Below are positions 830 to 15,342 of a stretch of DNA of 16,788 bases, piece by piece (position 1 is the first letter of the stretch; each line of letters begins with the position of its first letter). The DNA lies in contig CAYYQL010000048.1 in assembly GCA_964473825.1 (NCBI GenBank), positions 1-16,788 on the forward strand, written 5' to 3'. The position numbers were made by a program, and so were the translations under genes. The notes under the pieces were generated by a model. The model saw only the letters and a list, made by a program, of their open reading frames with translations. It ran no database searches and had not been told where the DNA came from. Source of the stretch: an uncultured archaeon. GTDB lineage: Archaea; Asgardarchaeota; Thorarchaeia; Thorarchaeales; Thorarchaeaceae.

Positions 830-1228
830 CTACCAACTGGTTCCACGAGATCTCTGAGGACGTCTATGGTTCTCCTCAGACATGTCTCTCTCGACATTCA
901 CTTCCTCAATCTCATCCTCGGCCTCAGTCAACTCGCTCTCACGACCAAACTTCAGGCGAAGATTCCCTCTGAACAACCCTGTATGGGCATTCGTCAGGGT
1001 ATAGGTCTTTCCAACTTCAACATTCTCTATGCTATCGTCCCAGAGGGGGACTACAACCGTACCAGAACTGTCGCCAACAACGGCGTCCGCGACTCGGTGG
1101 GTAGAGTCATCACGGCGTGATGTGACTTCTTTCGCATCACTCTTTTCAAGTACCTTGAACGTGACATTGATGTCCCCGAGTTGGGGTTCAAGTTCTGCAA
1201 TTTCGACGTCTCGCGTATCGGATGTCAT
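830..1228 (-). CDS. Single OB-fold ssDNA-binding protein (SSB/RPA-like), copy 1
   Basis: OB-fold signature 'INVTFKVLEK...EVTSR.D...HRVADAVVGD.SGTV...LWD...GKTY.L.NAHTGLFRGNLRL'. Start moved to the ATG at 1228 because AAGTGAT (RBS-like) lies upstream and the length then matches the paralog (132 aa). Confidence 0.88.
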   Translation of the reverse strand: MTSDTRDVEIAELEPQLGDINVTFKVLEKSDAKEVTSRRDDSTHRVADAVVGDSSGTVVVPLWDDSIENVEVGKTYTLTNAHTGLFRGNLRLKFGRESELTEAEDEIEEVNVERDMSEENHRRPQRSRGTSW

Positions 1229-10675: not shown

Positions 10676-11098
10676 TTAAGTACCGCCAGAACGTAGTGCG
10701 TCAAACCATGTACATGTTAACAATATTTAACTGCTGTGCTGAAGGCACAAGGCATCAGTCCCATCTCTCTAAGGAGAGCACCTGCCAATCTGGGCGGTAC
10801 GTGTCATTCCGTGAGAGCGACTCCAATTAGAAGCGACAAGAGCATCAATGTCGGAGAGTCAAACATGACCTTCCCAATCTTGGTCATAGATCCGGAGAGC
10901 GATAAAGTTGGCTTGCCAAGACGCCAATGGCACTTCTGTGGCGTATCGGGCTCCAGCAGTCCTTTTGGATAGAGATGAGGGTGACAGTTGGCGCTGTTCG
11001 AATATCATTCAGGTAGTATCTAAAATTACATGAGTTTATATTTTTATCAGTATATTTGGATTCTATCAGCATTAGAGTTAGAAATCAGGTAGATACGA

Positions 11099-11353
11099 AT
11101 GAGTCTGACAAAGGAGAGCCAGATCGGGAAGAAGTACACAGTGTATCTTCCAAAGGCAGTGGTGGAAGAGGTGAGCCTCAGAGAGGGAATGAAGATCCTC
11201 ATCACTGTCGAGGGAGGTCGTATCATCATAGAACCATTACTGCATCCGATTTACTTGGCCCTGAAGGGAGAGAAGTTCGCGAAGATCACACTTGAGGAGA
11301 TGGAGGCGATAAGTCTTGAAGAACAGTCCAGACACACAGAGGATTCTTCTTGA
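11099..11353 (+). CDS. AbrB/MazE/SpoVT-family antitoxin (VapB)
   Basis: 'IGKKYTVYLPKAVVEEVSLREG......VEGGRIIIEP'. Overlaps the downstream PIN gene. Confidence 0.88.
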   Translation: MSLTKESQIGKKYTVYLPKAVVEEVSLREGMKILITVEGGRIIIEPLLHPIYLALKGEKFAKITLEEMEAISLEEQSRHTEDSS

Positions 11354-11768
11354 CACCTCCTTCCTGTTGCCCTCGTTGGGAATAGAGGTCGAGGAAGAGG
11401 TCATGGACACTCTCAGGAAGCTGGAGTCCACGAAGAACGAGCTGGTGTACTCCGACTGGAGTCTGCTCGAGAGTAACTGGATTGCTGTTCGCCAGATGAG
11501 GAAAGGAAGCTTCAACGAGAGTGTGTTCCGGAGGGGACTACTCAGTATCACAAGGACGGGATACTATACCGGTGTCAGCAGCGAGGCAGAGGACTACCTC
11601 ATGGCTCTCACCCTCGTTCAAGATGGCCACCCGGATATGATTGATAATCTCCTCTATGCCACTGCTCTTCGAAGGGAATACAGCTTTCTCACCATCGACA
11701 GAGACCTGCAGGACTTTGTTACTCGGAACATGGTCCAGAACGTCCTGCTCACTCCATATGACATCTGA
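11316..11768 (+). CDS. PIN-domain (VapC) toxin
   Basis: 'ILLDTSFLLP', 'SLLE', 'HPDMIDNLLYATA' and 'FLTIDRDL' supply the PIN acidic residues. Confidence 0.88.
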   Translation: MKNSPDTQRILLDTSFLLPSLGIEVEEEVMDTLRKLESTKNELVYSDWSLLESNWIAVRQMRKGSFNESVFRRGLLSITRTGYYTGVSSEAEDYLMALTLVQDGHPDMIDNLLYATALRREYSFLTIDRDLQDFVTRNMVQNVLLTPYDI

Positions 11769-11782
11769 CCGTTCATCGGAGA

Positions 11783-11975
11783 TAGGGTACCGTACAGCTC
11801 CCAAAATTCCGGACAGACCTAGGCATCGTTGTATAGATGTTTATATACTCATGACAAGAACATCCTGATGAGGGTGTCCTGACACACGATCGTACCCTGA
11901 CAAAGCCATTCCCAGTGCCGCTCCTGGGAGGACAAAGCTTTGGTGTCCAGATTTGTCCAGCTTACAATGAACGGT
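11783..11975 (+). repeat. Dispersed ~190-bp non-coding repeat, copy A
   Basis: Colinear with 14102-14292, sharing TAGGGTA, ACAGCT, GGACAGA, TTATATnCTC, CCCAGTGCCG, CCTGGG, GACAA, TGGTG, TTTGTCCA and TACAATGAACG. Confidence 0.8.
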
Positions 11976-12038
11976 AATCTTGGCATCAGAAAGGGTCTAC
12001 CCAGGGTAAGGGCACGAACGGCCCCTGAAATCGTTGGC

Positions 12039-12290
12039 TCACTCTTTGAAGGCCCTCTCAGAGTATCTCTGCAGAGTCAGATCATCATAGACCGAATGGA
12101 AATCAACTCCCTCGATGGGTTCTGTGAACTTCTTCCAGGCCTCCTGACGCCTATGTTTCTCAGAATATCCATCGATGAGGAAACGAATGACCGTATCGAG
12201 CTCAACTTGTTTCTGGCTCCGTTTCTCAAGCTCCCCTGCAATCCGAAGTAGTTTCTCTTGAGGGTTTTCCCGGATGGAGATGATGGGCAG
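12039..12290 (-). CDS. Orphan VapB-like antitoxin / ribbon-helix-helix-like protein (CTG start; possibly decaying)
   Basis: Not in the ORF track. Hand translation gives LPIISIRENPQEKLLRIAGELEKRSQKQVELDTVIRFLIDGYSEKHRRQEAWKKFTEPIEGVDFHSVYDDLTLQRYSERAFKE* (83 aa), which has the strand-helix-helix pattern of archaeal VapB-type antitoxins. Confidence 0.6.
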   Translation of the reverse strand: MPIISIRENPQEKLLRIAGELEKRSQKQVELDTVIRFLIDGYSEKHRRQEAWKKFTEPIEGVDFHSVYDDLTLQRYSERAFKE

Positions 12291-12326
12291 GGTCGGTCAT
12301 GGATCAATGACACAACTACGGCAATA

Positions 12327-12380
12327 AGGGTATACCAACAGCTACAGAAAACCTGGACAGAGTTGGACATCTCAATCGCA
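12327..12380 (+). repeat. Partial (5' part) copy C of the dispersed repeat
   Basis: AGGGTATACCAACAGCTACAGAAAACCTGGACAGAGTTGGACATCTCA vs copy B AGGGTATATCAACAGCTATCGAAAACGTGGACAGAGTTTGACATTTCA (42/48 identical). Confidence 0.85.
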
Positions 12381-12488
12381 ATAGGTCTACTCTTGAGCAC
12401 ATATAGACTCCTCGTGGCGCTATCATGGAAATCGTTATTGCCCACTGCCGTCTAGCATCTGAACAGTGTCTGAAGAGAGTGCTGTACA

Positions 12489-12623
12489 TTGTCAGAGAAG
12501 AAACGGCTCAGCAAAATCGCCGGAGTCTTGGACAACGAGAACATCGATGTCATCAAGCGGGCTATCGCAGCAGTCAGAGCCAGGAGTAGAGAACGGATTG
12601 AGAACATCTTCACGGAGAACTAA
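12489..12623 (+). CDS. Small ORF resembling the C-terminal half of a VapB3/DUF217-type antitoxin (fragment)
   Basis: TTG start; MSEKKRLSKIAGVLDNENIDVIKRAIAAVRARSRERIENIFTEN* (44 aa). The 'L..IAG.L......IK.AI...R..SRER' pattern is typical of these antitoxin tails. The DNA-binding N-terminus is missing. Confidence 0.45.
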   Translation: MSEKKRLSKIAGVLDNENIDVIKRAIAAVRARSRERIENIFTEN

Positions 12624-12775
12624 CACTCTCTATGAGGTGTTTGACATTCACCTACATGGTTGCACTGACATCATGTCTCGGGTACAGACACAACACCTTC
12701 TGGACAGACCACCTTAGAATAGACCGAGTTCATGCCGACCTGCTCCTTCTTCCCCTTGAGATAGAGATACCTTCA

Positions 12776-12798
12776 TATACTCTGTCATACACAGTATA
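12776..12798. promoter_or_regulatory. Palindromic operator upstream of the UPF0175/DUF3368 pair
   Basis: TATACTcTGT-cat-ACAcAGTATA, 4 nt before ATG 12803, consistent with TA autoregulation. Confidence 0.5.
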
Positions 12799-12802
12799 CA
12801 CG

Positions 12803-13111
12803 ATGGCAATGGGCGATGTTCTCTCGGTACGGATTGATGAAGAATTGGAGCGGCGGCTTGCCTTCCTGATGGAGAGGCGGAAGATAGTGGACAAGTCGTC
12901 ATACGTGAGGCAACTCATTGCCCGATCTCTGTCGGATGATCTCCTCGACTATCTCGCGGAGGAGGTTGCTGCAAGACATATCAGCATCTGGAAGGCAGCA
13001 TCCATCGCAGACATCCCACTCAGGGCGATGATGAGCAAACTGGCAGAGCGTCACGTGCCAATGTACGATGAACAGGCCCTGAGAGAGGACCTGCTGTTCG
13101 CAGAGGGCTGA
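12803..13111 (+). CDS. UPF0175-family antitoxin (RHH + HTH)
   Basis: 'VLSVRIDEEL...DKSSYVRQLI...ISIWKAASIADIPLR.MM..L.ER.VP.YDE..LREDL'. Start at ATG 12803 or 12809. Confidence 0.85.
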   Translation: MAMGDVLSVRIDEELERRLAFLMERRKIVDKSSYVRQLIARSLSDDLLDYLAEEVAARHISIWKAASIADIPLRAMMSKLAERHVPMYDEQALREDLLFAEG

Positions 13112-13115
13112 TGAC

Positions 13116-13619
13116 GTGATCGCCATCATCAACTCCTCTCCCCTCATCTATCTGGGGAAGATCGGGCTCCTCAACCTCTTGCAGCAAATCTTCGACCAGA
13201 TGTTCACAGTTGAAACCGTGAGAGAGGAGGTCCTTGATTCCTCTGCACCGGAATACGCTATGCTACGCAGTGCATTCGCAGACTGGCTGGTAGTTCATGA
13301 TGTCCCGCAGAGCCCCCTCTACGCACGGCTCGCTGACATGGGCCTGCACCGGGGCGAGACAGATGCCCTGGTGCTAGCCTACCACATGAAGAAACGAGAG
13401 TCAAACTCAGTGATCGTCATCGACGATCTCGCAGGAAGAGAGGTGGCCAGAACACTGGGGCTCAGAGTGACGGGGACCGTCGGGGTCATCCTGCGGGCCA
13501 AGAAGACCGGACTTCTCACGAAGGAAGAGAGCCTAACCAAGATCCGTTCTCTCATTGAGGATACATCGTTCTGGATATCGGCATCACTCTACTCCAAGAT
13601 ACTGGCTGACTTGGAATGA
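13116..13619 (+). CDS. DUF3368-containing PIN-domain toxin
   Basis: 'IINSSPLIYLGKIGLL.LL..IF', 'V.EEV', 'LHRGETDAL.LA' and 'IDD..GR..A..LGL.VTGTVGVIL.AK..GL'. Confidence 0.9.
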   Translation: MIAIINSSPLIYLGKIGLLNLLQQIFDQMFTVETVREEVLDSSAPEYAMLRSAFADWLVVHDVPQSPLYARLADMGLHRGETDALVLAYHMKKRESNSVIVIDDLAGREVARTLGLRVTGTVGVILRAKKTGLLTKEESLTKIRSLIEDTSFWISASLYSKILADLE

Positions 13620-13776
13620 GCCATGAAGCTAATCGGCCAGTCGGATTGGAGAACACGATGTGTAGACTACAGGAGTCACCATAAGGAACGGGAATCTCCC
13701 AATACTGGCGAGATACACCCAGATCAATGCAATGAAACCATCACCTATTTTTGGCTCCTATGCGAGTGTTTCAGAC

Positions 13777-14088
13777 ATGACCAAGAGAGAGGGAAGAATA
13801 GCCGAAGAGAAGAGAACGGTTGAACTGATGATTCGTTACTACTGTGAACATAGACACGATTCAGATGCCCTATGCCCAGATTGCGAAGACCTTCTCGCCT
13901 ACGCCCAGTCCCGGCTGGAAAACTGCAGATATGGCAACGATAAACCAACCTGCAGGAAATGCAAGACTCATTGCTACAGCCCACAGTATCGAGATCGAAT
14001 CAAGACGGTCATGCGGTTCTCTGGCCCGCGAATGCTGTTCACAGCGCCATTGCGATGGATCAGACATGTGCTCCATGACTGGGAATAG
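13777..14088 (+). CDS. YgbA-family (nitrous oxide-stimulated promoter family) protein
   Basis: 'EKRTVELMIRYYC..RH....LCPDC..LL.YA..RL..C.YG..KPTCRKCKTHCY.P..R..IK.VMRFSGPRML'. Confidence 0.9.
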   Translation: MTKREGRIAEEKRTVELMIRYYCEHRHDSDALCPDCEDLLAYAQSRLENCRYGNDKPTCRKCKTHCYSPQYRDRIKTVMRFSGPRMLFTAPLRWIRHVLHDWE

Positions 14089-14101
14089 ACACTGATGTGT
14101 C

Positions 14102-14292
14102 TAGGGTATATCAACAGCTATCGAAAACGTGGACAGAGTTTGACATTTCAGCGCAGGAGCTTATATCCTCCAGCCCATGACTGAGAGCTGGTCCCTCACA
14201 CAGCATCGCTGACCACGACAGAAACCACCCAGTGCCGTTACCTGGGGAGACAACTCTCTGGTGGCCAAGTTTGTCCAACATACAATGAACGA
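14102..14292 (+). repeat. Dispersed ~190-bp non-coding repeat, copy B
   Basis: Colinear with copy A (11783-11975). Its 5' part is 42/48 identical to copy C. Confidence 0.8.
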
Positions 14293-14559
14293 TGCGCTTC
14301 TACTCATAGTGCCTATAGCTCAAATGAAGAAACAAGATGGTGAGGTGAGGGATGCAGACAGCCTCGTGGACCACGTGATTCACCAGATGACTCCGTGAGG
14401 TACTGTGTAGGACTCCAAATAGCCTGATTGCGGAGGCCTCACGTTGAAGTCAAGAATACAGACATTCCATCCTCACAGAGTTGGTTCAATGCCGCTTCTC
14501 GAGGAACACGCAAGTCACACCAGATGCCTTTCGGCTCCAGTATCAACAGGAGACCAGCA

Positions 14560-15342
14560 TCAACTCTGGTCCAGAAACTGTTTCAGACTCTGAGTGGCCT
14601 CTCTCGTGAGTCCTCGAATCACAATGGGAGAGATGGTGATATTGTTACGCTCAGTGACCTCAATGATGTCTGCGGTGTCACCAAGATCTGTTTCGCCACC
14701 TTGAATCCAGTAGTAGGTGCCGCCGTAGGGATCCTCTCTGGCCTCTATCCGGTTCGGCACGGCCGCAATAGTAGATTCGGTTATCACCAGTCTTGAGTCC
14801 TCTGTGACCCTCTTGGGGAAGTTCAGGTTGAGTACATCGATCCCTTCGGGGAATCCCTCTGTAAATATGCGTTCGATAATCCTGAGTGTATATGAACAGA
14901 TGAGGTCAAGGCCACTCTCGACCCCGTTCTGCGTGAACCAGTACTTCGACTCGACATCCTGTGACACAGCCAGAGCCGGATAGCCCTGCAGTGCGGCCTC
15001 CAGAGCGGCGCCGATCGTGCCACTGGTGAGCATACGGTGATAGCCAAGGTTAGCACCAGGGTTGATCCCCGATACGAAGAGGTCAAAGTTGGCTCGCATG
15101 GAGAGCGCAATGGGAACCGAGTCTGCAGGGAACCCGTCATGGATGATGAGTTCGTAGTCCTCGGTCTTGGAGTGCTCAAGAATCCTGATGGGATGACCAA
15201 GACTGAGAGCCTTCCCTGAGCCGCTACGCTGGCTGTCCGGAATCACTGCAAGTACATCGTTGCGCTCTGACAGGACAGACAGCAGCCGCTTCATGCCGAC
15301 ACTTGCCGGTCCATCATCGTCCATCAGGCAGATTGTGTGCAT
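14560..15342 (-). CDS. surE: SurE 5'/3'-nucleotidase
   Basis: 'DDDG', 'P..QRSGSG', 'DGFPADSV', 'SGINPGANLG....SGTIGAALEA', 'LNLNFP', 'DPYG..YYW' and 'ITISP'. Confidence 0.92.
   Translation of the reverse strand: MHTICLMDDDGPASVGMKRLLSVLSERNDVLAVIPDSQRSGSGKALSLGHPIRILEHSKTEDYELIIHDGFPADSVPIALSMRANFDLFVSGINPGANLGYHRMLTSGTIGAALEAALQGYPALAVSQDVESKYWFTQNGVESGLDLICSYTLRIIERIFTEGFPEGIDVLNLNFPKRVTEDSRLVITESTIAAVPNRIEAREDPYGGTYYWIQGGETDLGDTADIIEVTERNNITISPIVIRGLTREATQSLKQFLDQS

What the first reader, a model, noticed from the sequence alone, without database searches (positions are those of the whole stretch)
11783..14292. Unannotated ~190-bp repeat family with an internal TATA box and three conserved hairpins, interspersed among toxin-antitoxin genes
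Seen in sequence: copies A (11783-11975) and B (14102-14292) are colinear, and a 5' partial copy C lies at 12327-12380. A and B each start 13-14 nt after the stop of a same-strand gene (vapC and the ygbA-like gene). Each has TTATAT (11841; 14161), and about 28-30 nt later, where an archaeal transcription start would fall, three stems begin. Stem 1 is AGGGT/ACCCT (11871-75/11894-98) vs TGGTC/GACCA (14189-93/14211-15), including an apparent compensatory G-C to T-A change. Stem 2 is CCCAG-N8/9-CTGGG. Stem 3 is GACAA..TGG-NNN-CCA..TTTGTC, followed by an invariant TACAATGAACG. Inference: a multicopy ~105-nt structured small RNA with its own promoter. Alternatives are a MITE or a recombination site delimiting TA and stress gene cassettes. 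It matches no RNA or element family I recognise.
Basis: partly seen in the sequence, partly recalled or inferred. Interest (0 to 1): 0.8.

Follow-up and report, generated by a model that had tools for sequence, protein, structure and literature searches.

The report
Gene-less IS607 mini-transposon with guide RNA
The ~190-base repeat is a protein-free mini version of an IS607-type jumping gene that keeps only the transposon ends, a promoter and the folded scaffold of the guide RNA used by TnpB nucleases. It is a known kind of mobile DNA, not a new host RNA tied to the toxin-antitoxin genes.

Summary

The family has about 40 hits in this genome (19 full length) and occurs in 16 of 41 related genomes, all in one taxonomic family.

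It is not a new RNA family:
- **3' half:** on three contigs it runs on directly from the end of a tnpB gene, so it is the omega-RNA scaffold plus the transposon right end.
- **5' half:** in a relative it lies about 70 nt upstream of an intact serine transposase (MerR HTH + resolvase), so it is the left end.
- **Ends:** both carry paired TTGGACA-type boxes and a GG core, and there is no target duplication.
- **Mobility:** two congeneric genomes have the precise empty site for copy B.
- **Structure:** Single-sequence folding energies are ordinary.
- **Promoter:** a TATA octamer at fixed spacing is kept in 36 of 39 elements.

The repeat is therefore a non-autonomous IS607-type element that probably expresses an orphan guide RNA for TnpB supplied in trans. 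Expression and use are inferred, not shown.

This is a new member of a known kind. Earlier follow-ups in this scan read other copies of the family, in this genome and a related one, the same way.

The parts
11786..11974 (+). Copy A, a complete non-autonomous element. The left GG core is 11786-11787, the element proper starts at T11788, and the right GG core is 11973-11974.
   Evidence: nhmmer E 4.6e-35. Covariance model R1 scores 95.9 bits at 11863-11975. Alignment.
11809..11825 (+). Copy A left-end pair of direct boxes (CCGGACA, CTAGGCA), 10 bp apart. These are the presumed TnpA binding motifs.
   Evidence: The column pair is conserved in all copies. The same pair is inverted near the right end. 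IS607 ends carry such helically phased direct motifs (PMC6188088).
11840..11847 (+). Copy A TATA box, TTTATATA.
   Evidence: It matches TTTAWATA exactly. It sits at the family's fixed distance of about 134-137 nt from the right end.
11868..11974 (+). Copy A omega-RNA scaffold. S1 is 11870-75/11894-99. Pseudoknot X is 11901-05 with 11938-42. S2 is 11911-15/11924-28. S3 is 11930-35/11953-58.
   Evidence: Covariation counts. The homologous stretch runs on from tnpB 3' ends on C1, C15 and C26.
11975..11994 (+). Copy A predicted guide, the flank directly 3' of the scaffold. Its length is assumed to be 16-20 nt.
   Evidence: Assigned by position only. It is unique in the genome.
12329..12452 (+). 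Copy C, an old decayed copy. The left end with boxes 12353-59 and 12363-69 is intact. The TATA box and scaffold are degraded and the right end is gone.
   Evidence: nhmmer model positions 1-135, E 2.9e-11. Part of it is shared with genome G002.
14105..14292 (+). Copy B, a complete element. The left core is GG at 14105-06, the element proper starts at T14107, and the right core is GA at 14291-92.
   Evidence: nhmmer E 3.7e-54. Model R1 scores 67.7 bits. It is precisely absent from G001:C200 and G002:C15.
14129..14145 (+). Copy B left-end boxes, GTGGACA and TTTGACA.
14160..14167 (+). Copy B TATA box, CTTATATC, inside a stretch resembling the tnpB promoter.
   Evidence: Local alignment to the region upstream of the C26 tnpB gives 25 matches in a 32-column local alignment, and 0 of 2000 shuffles reach that score.
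14186..14292 (+). Copy B omega-RNA scaffold. S1 is 14189-93/14211-15. X is 14219-23 with 14256-60. S2 is 14228-32/14242-46. S3 is 14249-53/14271-75. The right-end boxes are at 14262-68 and 14272-78.
14293..14312 (+). Copy B predicted guide.
   Evidence: Assigned by position. It is unique in the genome. This flank follows the core directly in the empty sites of G001 and G002.

Best explanation
The repeat is a non-autonomous, gene-less derivative of an IS607-family transposon. The parent carries a serine transposase (TnpA) and a TnpB nuclease.

**Layout, 5' to 3'**
- GG crossover core.
- Left end with two helically phased TTGGACA-type boxes.
- Archaeal TATA promoter. In B-type copies it resembles the tnpB promoter.
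- About 105 nt of omega-RNA scaffold: hairpin S1, pseudoknot helix X, hairpin S2 and long-range helix S3.
- Right end, which overlaps the scaffold and carries the same two boxes inverted. It finishes ...ACAATGAAC-GG.

**Shown here**
- The family is real and its ends are sharp.
- Its halves are continuous with tnpB on one side and with tnpA on the other.
- Insertion happens at a GG(T) site without target duplication.
- The helices covary.
- The TATA box is conserved at fixed spacing.

**Inferred mechanism**
- A serine TnpA made elsewhere binds the boxes and moves the element through a circular intermediate by crossover at GG.
- The promoter transcribes the scaffold together with the 16-20 nt of flanking DNA, which act as the guide.
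- A TnpB made elsewhere loads this RNA. The 719-aa protein on contig 26 is the candidate, because its own scaffold is the closest match.
- If the element excises, TnpB cuts the emptied site next to an nGGG-like motif. Repair from a sister copy then restores the element.
- The occupied site would escape cutting because the right end reads ACGG rather than nGGG. The Clostridium botulinum IS607 element makes the same distinction, TCGG against TGGG.
For: **Family and boundaries**
- There are 40 hits in this genome, 19 full length, with sharp ends GG-GTAyACCAACAGC ... ACAATGAAC-GG-T.

**Right half is the tnpB end**
- Pfam PF07282 hits at C1:114026-114259, C15:318-551 and C26:26422-26595 run straight into model positions 91-189 of the repeat.
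- The C26 ORF is a 719-aa TnpB-like protein. It has a GADRGI motif, a CxxC...CxxC zinc ribbon and an HADVNAARNI motif.

**Left half is the tnpA end**
- A repeat-type left end lies upstream of a MerR-HTH/TnpB chimera on C1.
- In genome G009 the same left end lies about 70 nt (its box pair about 28 nt) upstream of an intact 204-aa MerR-HTH plus Resolvase protein, PF00239 E 4e-21.

**Mobility and target**
- Copy B is precisely absent in two congeneric genomes: CTAG-GA-TCC against CTAG-GG-[element]-GAAC-GA-TGC.
- G002 has another copy inserted at AGGGT|CACAG, a site that is empty in this window.
- Across 39 elements the two left-junction G columns are G in 37 and 36 of 39, and the two right-core positions are G in 39 and 36 of 39, followed by T in 36 of 39. 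The flanks are otherwise random.
- This matches published IS607 behaviour: a strict GG core, a TGGG target that is also the TAM, a scaffold ending UCGG and no target duplication (10.1101/2023.11.20.567912). It also matches the published subterminal direct motifs (PMC6188088).

**RNA structure**
- On a plain MAFFT alignment, 90% of cells pair, against 33-51% when partners are slid. There are 44 double-change cells and 0 of 500 shuffles reach the score.
- On the model-fitted alignment of 52 distinct sequences, 19 of 23 pairs show changes on both sides. All 5 pairs of helix X do, and X was not part of the model.
- S1 persists with at least four different stem sequences. One of them, GTGAATG/CATTCAC, lies inside tnpB coding sequence.

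**Promoter**
- 36 of 39 elements have an octamer within 2 mismatches of TTTAWATA, and 29 of the 39 place it 134-137 nt from the right end. This spacing holds even where 20-40 nt are inserted upstream of it.
- TBP is encoded in the genome.

**Co-occurrence**
- 13 genomes hold both the repeat and the large TnpB, 3 hold only the repeat, 2 hold only TnpB and 23 hold neither.

**Guides**
- Every copy has a different 3' flank that matches only itself.
Against: - No transcript data exist, so the transcription start, RNA length and guide length are all inferred.
- Single-sequence folds are no more stable than shuffles.
- Wobble pairs (39 G-U) barely outnumber A-C cells (31). The transcribed strand is therefore set by context, not by the pair statistics.
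- No Rfam family matches the window. The TnpB has no sequence-level relative in the PDB.
- This assembly holds no intact serine transposase, with no PF00239 hit at 95.7% completeness. The copies may be immobile here at present.
- Only B-type copies clearly resemble the tnpB promoter. Copy A does so only weakly, at p about 0.05.
- The left region of the three full-length tnpB loci in this genome does not match the repeat's left end. The direct parent is therefore not in this assembly.
- Related genomes are not independent samples, which inflates the co-occurrence and shuffle statistics.
Confidence: 0.8

Rival explanations
1. The repeat is an independent host small-RNA gene family that the transposon merely resembles, for example a regulator of the adjacent toxin-antitoxin or stress genes.
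For: - The TATA box is conserved at fixed spacing and the structure covaries.
- Two of the genome's five Pfam PIN genes lie within 300 bp of a copy.
- A and B both follow a same-strand gene closely.
Against: - The 3' half is continuous with tnpB and the 5' half with tnpA.
- The element is present or absent on its own between congeneric genomes, while the neighbouring ygbA-like and surE genes stay in place.
- Another copy sits inside surE in G002.
- The sequence after the scaffold is different in every copy and matches nothing else in the genome.
Confidence: 0.04
2. The repeat is a dead relic: a mini-transposon whose promoter and RNA scaffold are only leftovers of the parent. It is neither transcribed nor used, and it persists only because a transposase copies it.
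For: - No expression data exist.
- Folding energy is ordinary.
- Copy C and many partial hits are visibly decaying.
- This assembly has no intact TnpA.
Against: - Compensatory changes in four helices across genera indicate selection on the RNA fold within gene-less copies. The TnpA boxes overlap only S3.
- The TATA-to-scaffold spacing is kept while the spacing from the left end to the TATA box varies by 20-40 nt.
Confidence: 0.12
3. The repeat is a palindrome-associated element (PATE) of the IS200/IS605 family. It would be moved as single-stranded DNA by a Y1 tyrosine transposase, with the hairpins serving as DNA-level recognition structures.
For: - TnpB and omega-RNA are most often found in IS200/IS605 elements.
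- PATEs carrying omega-RNAs are described (10.1101/2023.03.14.532601).
Against: - The genome has no Y1 transposase, with no PF01797 hit.
- The left end has direct boxes, not a subterminal hairpin.
- There is a GG core at both junctions.
- The same left end adjoins a serine recombinase gene.
Confidence: 0.02
4. The repeat is an attC-like or other recombination site that delimits mobile gene cassettes (toxin-antitoxin modules).
For: - Three copies lie within 2.5 kb among toxin-antitoxin pairs.
- G002 lacks a 1475-bp block (MazE-PIN, copy A and a small ORF) that ends inside copy C.
Against: - That block's junction lies at an 8-9-bp TTGGnCAT microhomology inside a box of copy C, not at the element's ends.
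- Both clean presence/absence cases involve the element alone.
- Most copies elsewhere are solitary.
Confidence: 0.02

Closest known systems
IS607-family transposons with TnpB and a right-end omega-RNA, for example the Clostridium botulinum IStron (CboIStron) and IS1535 (10.1101/2023.11.20.567912; PMC6188088)
   Same: - A serine TnpA with an N-terminal MerR-type HTH lies next to the left end.
- tnpB lies next to the right end, with the guide-RNA scaffold overlapping its 3' end.
- Both ends carry short direct subterminal motifs.
- There is a GG crossover core and no target duplication.
- The target and TAM resemble nGGG, and the scaffold ends in CGG.
   Different: - This element has lost both genes and is only about 187 nt long.
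- It carries an archaeal TATA promoter placed directly before the scaffold.
- It lives in an archaeon. Earlier scan notes call it Thorarchaeota, which I did not test.
- The partner TnpB is about 720 aa, nearly twice the usual size.
- There is no group I intron.
PATEs, the gene-less IS200/IS605 derivatives that often encode omega-RNAs (Meers et al., 10.1101/2023.03.14.532601)
   Same: Both are minimal elements that keep the ends plus a guide-RNA scaffold. Both must borrow the transposase and TnpB in trans.
   Different: The transposition chemistry and ends differ. PATEs use a Y1 transposase, single-stranded DNA and subterminal palindromes. This element uses a serine recombinase, double-stranded DNA, direct boxes and a GG core.
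Asgard aCas1-TnpB loci (groups Cas1H-Asgard-1 and -2; PMC10691335)
   Same: Both involve large TnpB proteins of Asgard archaea with a conserved region downstream of tnpB followed by variable sequence.
   Different: I did not examine a Cas1-like gene here. The link comes from earlier scan notes and from a 395-aa unassigned ORF next to tnpA in G009.
Classical MITEs (DDE-transposon derivatives)
   Same: Both are short, multicopy, non-coding and non-autonomous, and both are scattered in intergenic DNA.
   Different: This element has no inverted repeats at its tips and makes no target-site duplication. 'MITE' applies only loosely.

Membership tests
IS607-family element (non-autonomous derivative) | The same left end is found next to a serine transposase with an N-terminal MerR-type HTH and a resolvase catalytic domain. 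| tested here: met
   In G009 locus L079, the left end lies about 70 nt (box pair about 28 nt) upstream of a 204-aa ORF. That ORF hits PF00239 at E 4e-21 and also MerR/HTH_17. The C1 chimera in this genome keeps the HTH part.
IS607-family element (non-autonomous derivative) | Insertion occurs at a GG core dinucleotide without target-site duplication. | tested here: met
   Two empty-site comparisons were made. Junction statistics cover 39 elements. Copy B used a non-canonical GA core, leaving GG on the left and GA on the right, the left/right core mismatch reported when donor and target cores differ.
IS607-family element (non-autonomous derivative) | Both ends carry short, directly repeated subterminal motifs, with an imperfect inverted repeat between the ends. 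| tested here: met
   Two TTGGACA-type boxes lie 10 bp apart about 25-45 nt from the left end. The same pair lies inverted about 14-30 nt from the right end. Compare PMC6188088.
IS607-family element (non-autonomous derivative) | The element is mobilised by TnpA through a circular double-stranded intermediate. | not testable with these tools
   This needs an excision and integration assay.
TnpB omega-RNA (reRNA) | The scaffold overlaps the 3' end of tnpB and runs to the transposon's right boundary, with the guide being the flank. | tested here: met
   Model positions 91-189 continue from tnpB on C1, C15 and C26. The flanks differ in every copy.
TnpB omega-RNA (reRNA) | The secondary structure is conserved and supported by covariation. 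| tested here: met
   Thermodynamic stability alone is not exceptional.
TnpB omega-RNA (reRNA) | The RNA is transcribed, bound by TnpB and directs DNA cleavage next to a TAM. | not testable with these tools
   There are no expression or biochemical data, and the TAM is only inferred from the 5' junction.
Any curated Rfam family | A match to an Rfam covariance model. | tested here: not met
   The only match in the window at E up to 1 is one chance-level lncRNA hit elsewhere.
IS200/IS605 PATE | A Y1 transposase partner and subterminal palindromic hairpins at both ends. | tested here: not met
   The genome has no PF01797 hit, and the left end has direct boxes.
Classical MITE | Terminal inverted repeats at the tips plus a target-site duplication. 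| tested here: not met
   Searches show no duplication beyond the shared GG(T). The inverted repeats are subterminal.

The most novel reading that the evidence does not exclude
The gene-less copies may be selected as a dispersed set of promoter-driven guide-RNA genes. Each would arm the oversized TnpB in trans against its own empty site. Some may have been co-opted by the host, for example to stabilise or regulate variable islands such as this toxin-antitoxin cluster. That would make this the first IS607-type and archaeal case of a stand-alone guide-RNA element with a dedicated promoter.
Probability: 0.15. Interest if true: 0.5.

Novelty: new member of a known kind. Interest (0 to 1): 0.25.

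Why it matters
- **Annotation:** about 40 loci in this genome, and many more in its relatives, should be labelled as IS607-type mini-elements and not as novel RNAs or cassette sites.
- **Biology:** the family gives a compact natural scaffold of about 105 nt, plus its promoter, for an unusually large archaeal TnpB. It also gives natural before-and-after insertion sites that define the target, GG followed by T.
- **Possible use:** this could help anyone who wants to test these TnpB proteins.
- **Limits:** it does not open a new question. Gene-less elements carrying omega-RNAs are already described for the sister IS200/IS605 family.

Tried and rejected
- **Rfam:** a scan of the whole window at E up to 1 found nothing relevant.
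- **Y1 transposase and resolvase:** Pfam searches of this genome found neither. No autonomous parent could be shown in this assembly.
- **Left end at full-length tnpB loci:** I looked for the repeat's left end upstream of the three full-length tnpB genes. Only the promoter stretch matches. Their far-left regions differ.
- **PDB:** a sequence search with the 719-aa TnpB gave no hit. The protein atlas gave only generic TnpB-like clusters.
- **Single-sequence folding:** folds of A and B on both strands are uninformative.
- **Strand from wobble pairs:** G-U against A-C counts do not decide the strand.
- **Secondary guide targets:** none were found in the genome.
- **Integron or attC reading:** rejected because the junctions are wrong.
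- **First covariance model attempt:** it failed on a mistyped structure length and was corrected. Two earlier calls failed on wrong coordinates or frame, and one on a search term that was too short (46).
Full report
**1. Observation**

- Copies A and B align end to end, and copy C shares the first 48 nt at 88% identity.
- The flanking genes are confirmed by Pfam. A MazE antitoxin and a PIN toxin precede A. A UPF0175/DUF3368 pair lies between C and B. A YgbA_NO protein precedes B. SurE and a ParE toxin follow.

The repeat is far from a chance pair.
- BLAST and an iterated nhmmer profile find 40 hits in this 3.27-Mb genome. Nineteen are full length.
- Their alignment has sharp boundaries. The flanks are unrelated up to GG-GTAyACCAACAGC on the left and beyond ACAATGAAC-GG-T on the right.

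**2. What the two halves are**

*Right half.*
- A genome-wide search with the TnpB zinc-ribbon family PF07282 gives nine hits.
- Three of them (C1:114026-114259, C15:318-551, C26:26422-26595) run straight into partial repeat copies covering model positions 91-189.
- The C26 gene encodes a 719-aa TnpB-like protein. It hits PF07282 at residues 647-703 and PF01385 weakly. It has a GADRGI motif, a CxxC...CxxC ribbon and an HADVNAARNI motif.
- The 3' half of the repeat is therefore the sequence that, in TnpB elements, encodes the guide-RNA (omega-RNA) scaffold and the transposon right end.

*Left half.*
- On C1, a 207-aa ORF fuses a MerR-type HTH to the TnpB C-terminus. It is preceded by a repeat-type left end, GGGGTTGCAGACAGC...GGTGGACAAGATTGGACA.
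- In a genome of another genus (G009), the same kind of left end lies about 70 nt (its box pair about 28 nt) upstream of an intact 204-aa protein with MerR HTH and Resolvase domains, PF00239 E 4e-21.
- That domain order is the signature of IS607-family serine transposases (PMC6188088).
- This genome has no resolvase and no Y1 transposase hit. The copies here are non-autonomous.

**3. Ends, target and mobility**

*Boxes.*
- The left end carries two TTGGACA-type boxes 10 bp apart.
- The right end carries the same pair inverted.
- IS607-family ends are described as having short, direct, helically phased motifs and an imperfect inverted repeat at different distances from the tips, with no target duplication.

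*Copy B.*
- Two congeneric genomes hold the exact empty site for copy B. They read CTAG-GA-TCC, where this genome reads CTAG-GG-[TATATC...GAAC]-GA-TGC.
- Copy B thus used a GA core. It kept the element's GG on the left and the target's GA on the right.
- The C. botulinum study reports the same kind of outcome when donor and target cores differ: the left junction kept the donor's core and the two junctions did not match.

*A reciprocal case.*
- G002 has a further copy inserted at AGGGT|CACAG inside surE, a site that is empty in this window near 14806.

*Junction statistics.*
- Over 39 elements, the two left-junction G columns are G in 37 and 36 of 39.
- The two right-core positions are G in 39 and 36 of 39, followed by T in 36 of 39.
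- All other flank positions are random.
- This parallels the published TGGG target and TAM, and the UCGG scaffold end, of an IS607 element.

*Recent movement.*
- The copies on C45 and C6 differ at one base but have unrelated flanks. Transposition was therefore recent.

**4. RNA structure**

*Plain alignment.* On a MAFFT alignment of 45 right halves from 16 genomes:
- Three helices pair in 90% of cells, against 33-51% when partners are slid.
- There are 44 cells with changes on both sides.
- 0 of 500 shuffles reach the score.

- CAGAG between stems 1 and 2 pairs with CTCTG in the loop of stem 3.
- It covaries as CAAAG/CTTTG (copy A), CGGAG/CTCCG and AGGAG/CTCCT.

*Stem 3.*
- Five sequences change GGACA/TGTCC to GTACA/TGTAC while the neighbouring boxes stay unchanged.
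- This argues for base pairing, not co-evolution of protein-binding boxes.

*Stem 1.*
- It persists with at least four stem sequences: TGGTC/GACCA, GAGGGT/ACCCT, TGAGGT/ACCTCA and GTGAATG/CATTCAC.
- The last lies inside tnpB coding sequence.

*Covariance model.*
- A model built from 13 sequences finds 53 matches in the loci held.
- On that alignment, 19 of 23 pairs change on both sides.
- The alignment is fitted to the model. Helix X was not part of the model and still shows all 5 pairs changing on both sides.

*Caveats.*
- MFE z-scores are about 0 to +1.
- G-U cells (39) barely exceed A-C cells (31).

**5. Promoter**

- The genome encodes TBP, so it is archaeal and TATA boxes are meaningful.
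- In 36 of 39 elements, an octamer lies within two mismatches of TTTAWATA.
- In 29 of the 39 elements it lies 134-137 nt from the right end. That puts it about 27-30 nt before stem 1.
- The spacing holds even where 20-40 nt are inserted between the left-end boxes and the TATA box.
- In B-type copies the stretch around the TATA box matches the region upstream of the C26 tnpB gene, with 25 matches in a 32-column local alignment and 0 of 2000 shuffles reaching the score. Copy A matches only weakly.
- The simplest history is internal deletion of a full element, joining the left end and the tnpB promoter directly to the scaffold.

**6. Distribution**

- The repeat occurs in 16 of 41 related genomes, all in one family.
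- The large TnpB occurs in 15 of them. Thirteen genomes have both.
- Intact serine TnpA genes occur in several genera of that family, but not in this genus as assembled.
- Related genomes are not independent, so these counts are descriptive only.

**7. Mechanism**

*Shown:* the anatomy, the insertion chemistry footprint, structural conservation and promoter conservation.

*Inferred from the published IS605 and IS607 work:*
- TnpA supplied in trans moves the element.
- The promoter makes scaffold plus flank.
- TnpB supplied in trans uses it to cut the emptied site, so that recombination restores the copy.

Each of 35 copies has its own unique flank, with no second target in the genome. This fits homing and gives no sign of host co-option.

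**8. The toxin-antitoxin context**

- Only five PIN genes are found in the genome, and two lie within 300 bp of a copy. The numbers are small.
- The simplest reading is that both accumulate in variable, insertion-tolerant regions.
- G002 lacks window 10888-12362, which holds MazE-PIN, copy A, a small ORF and the first 45 nt of copy C.
- The junction of that gap falls at a TTGGnCAT microhomology between a small ORF start and box 2 of copy C. This looks like a deletion, not cassette exchange.

**9. Earlier work in this scan**

I reached this reading before opening the notes; it is stated.
- The notes show that other copies of this family in the same genome and a related one were already followed up and read the same way.
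- They also name the organism as Thorarchaeota. I did not test this beyond showing that the genome is archaeal.

**10. Verdict**

The element is a gene-less IS607-type transposon carrying a TnpB guide-RNA scaffold. It is a new member of a known kind and of modest interest.

Noticed in passing
window 10888-12362 versus G002:C15:54760-54767: G002 lacks a 1475-bp block holding MazE-PIN, copy A, a 74-aa ORF and the first 45 nt of copy C. The junction lies at an 8-9-bp TTGGnCAT microhomology between a small ORF start (10879-10887) and left-end box 2 of copy C (12363-12370). G001 follows the G000 arrangement on the left side.
   Followed up: partly
window about 14806-14807 (inside surE, 14560-15342 minus strand); G002:C15:56939-57143: G002 carries a further copy of the element, in reverse orientation, inside the surE coding region. 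This window holds the empty site (AGGGT|CACAG in element orientation). surE may be disrupted in G002.
   Followed up: partly
G000 C45:10579-10769 and C6:94632-94821: These two copies differ at a single base but have unrelated flanks. That implies recent transposition, although no intact serine transposase is in this assembly.
   Followed up: partly
G000 C6:85144-86829 and C6:87050-89161 (locus L034): Two tandem TnpB-like genes (561 and 703 aa) hit PF07282. In a low-identity alignment (23-25%) they lack the first RuvC aspartate and the RuvC glutamate that the C26 protein has. They may be nuclease-dead relatives.
   Followed up: no
G000 C75:683-889 with C75:1130-1486; window 11343-11714 with 11786-11974: Two of the genome's five Pfam PIN-domain genes lie within 300 bp of a copy of the element. 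The numbers are small and there is no mechanism. The likeliest cause is shared residence in variable regions.
   Followed up: partly
window 831-1130 and 2401-2700: A 300-nt direct repeat at 77% identity, spaced 1570 nt apart, overlies two minus-strand ORFs of 141-142 aa. These look like paralogous genes.
   Followed up: no
L033:603-700 (minus), the 3' end of the C2 tnpB gene: Covariance model R1 also matches the end of the more distant 717-aa tnpB on contig 2 (27 bits, E 5e-4). That gene seems to keep a diverged version of the same scaffold.
   Followed up: no
L079:2103-3290 (minus), genome G009: A 395-aa open frame cut by the locus end, with no Pfam match, lies directly downstream of the intact serine tnpA and converges on it. 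Earlier notes mention a giant Cas1-like gene in such elements.
   Followed up: no
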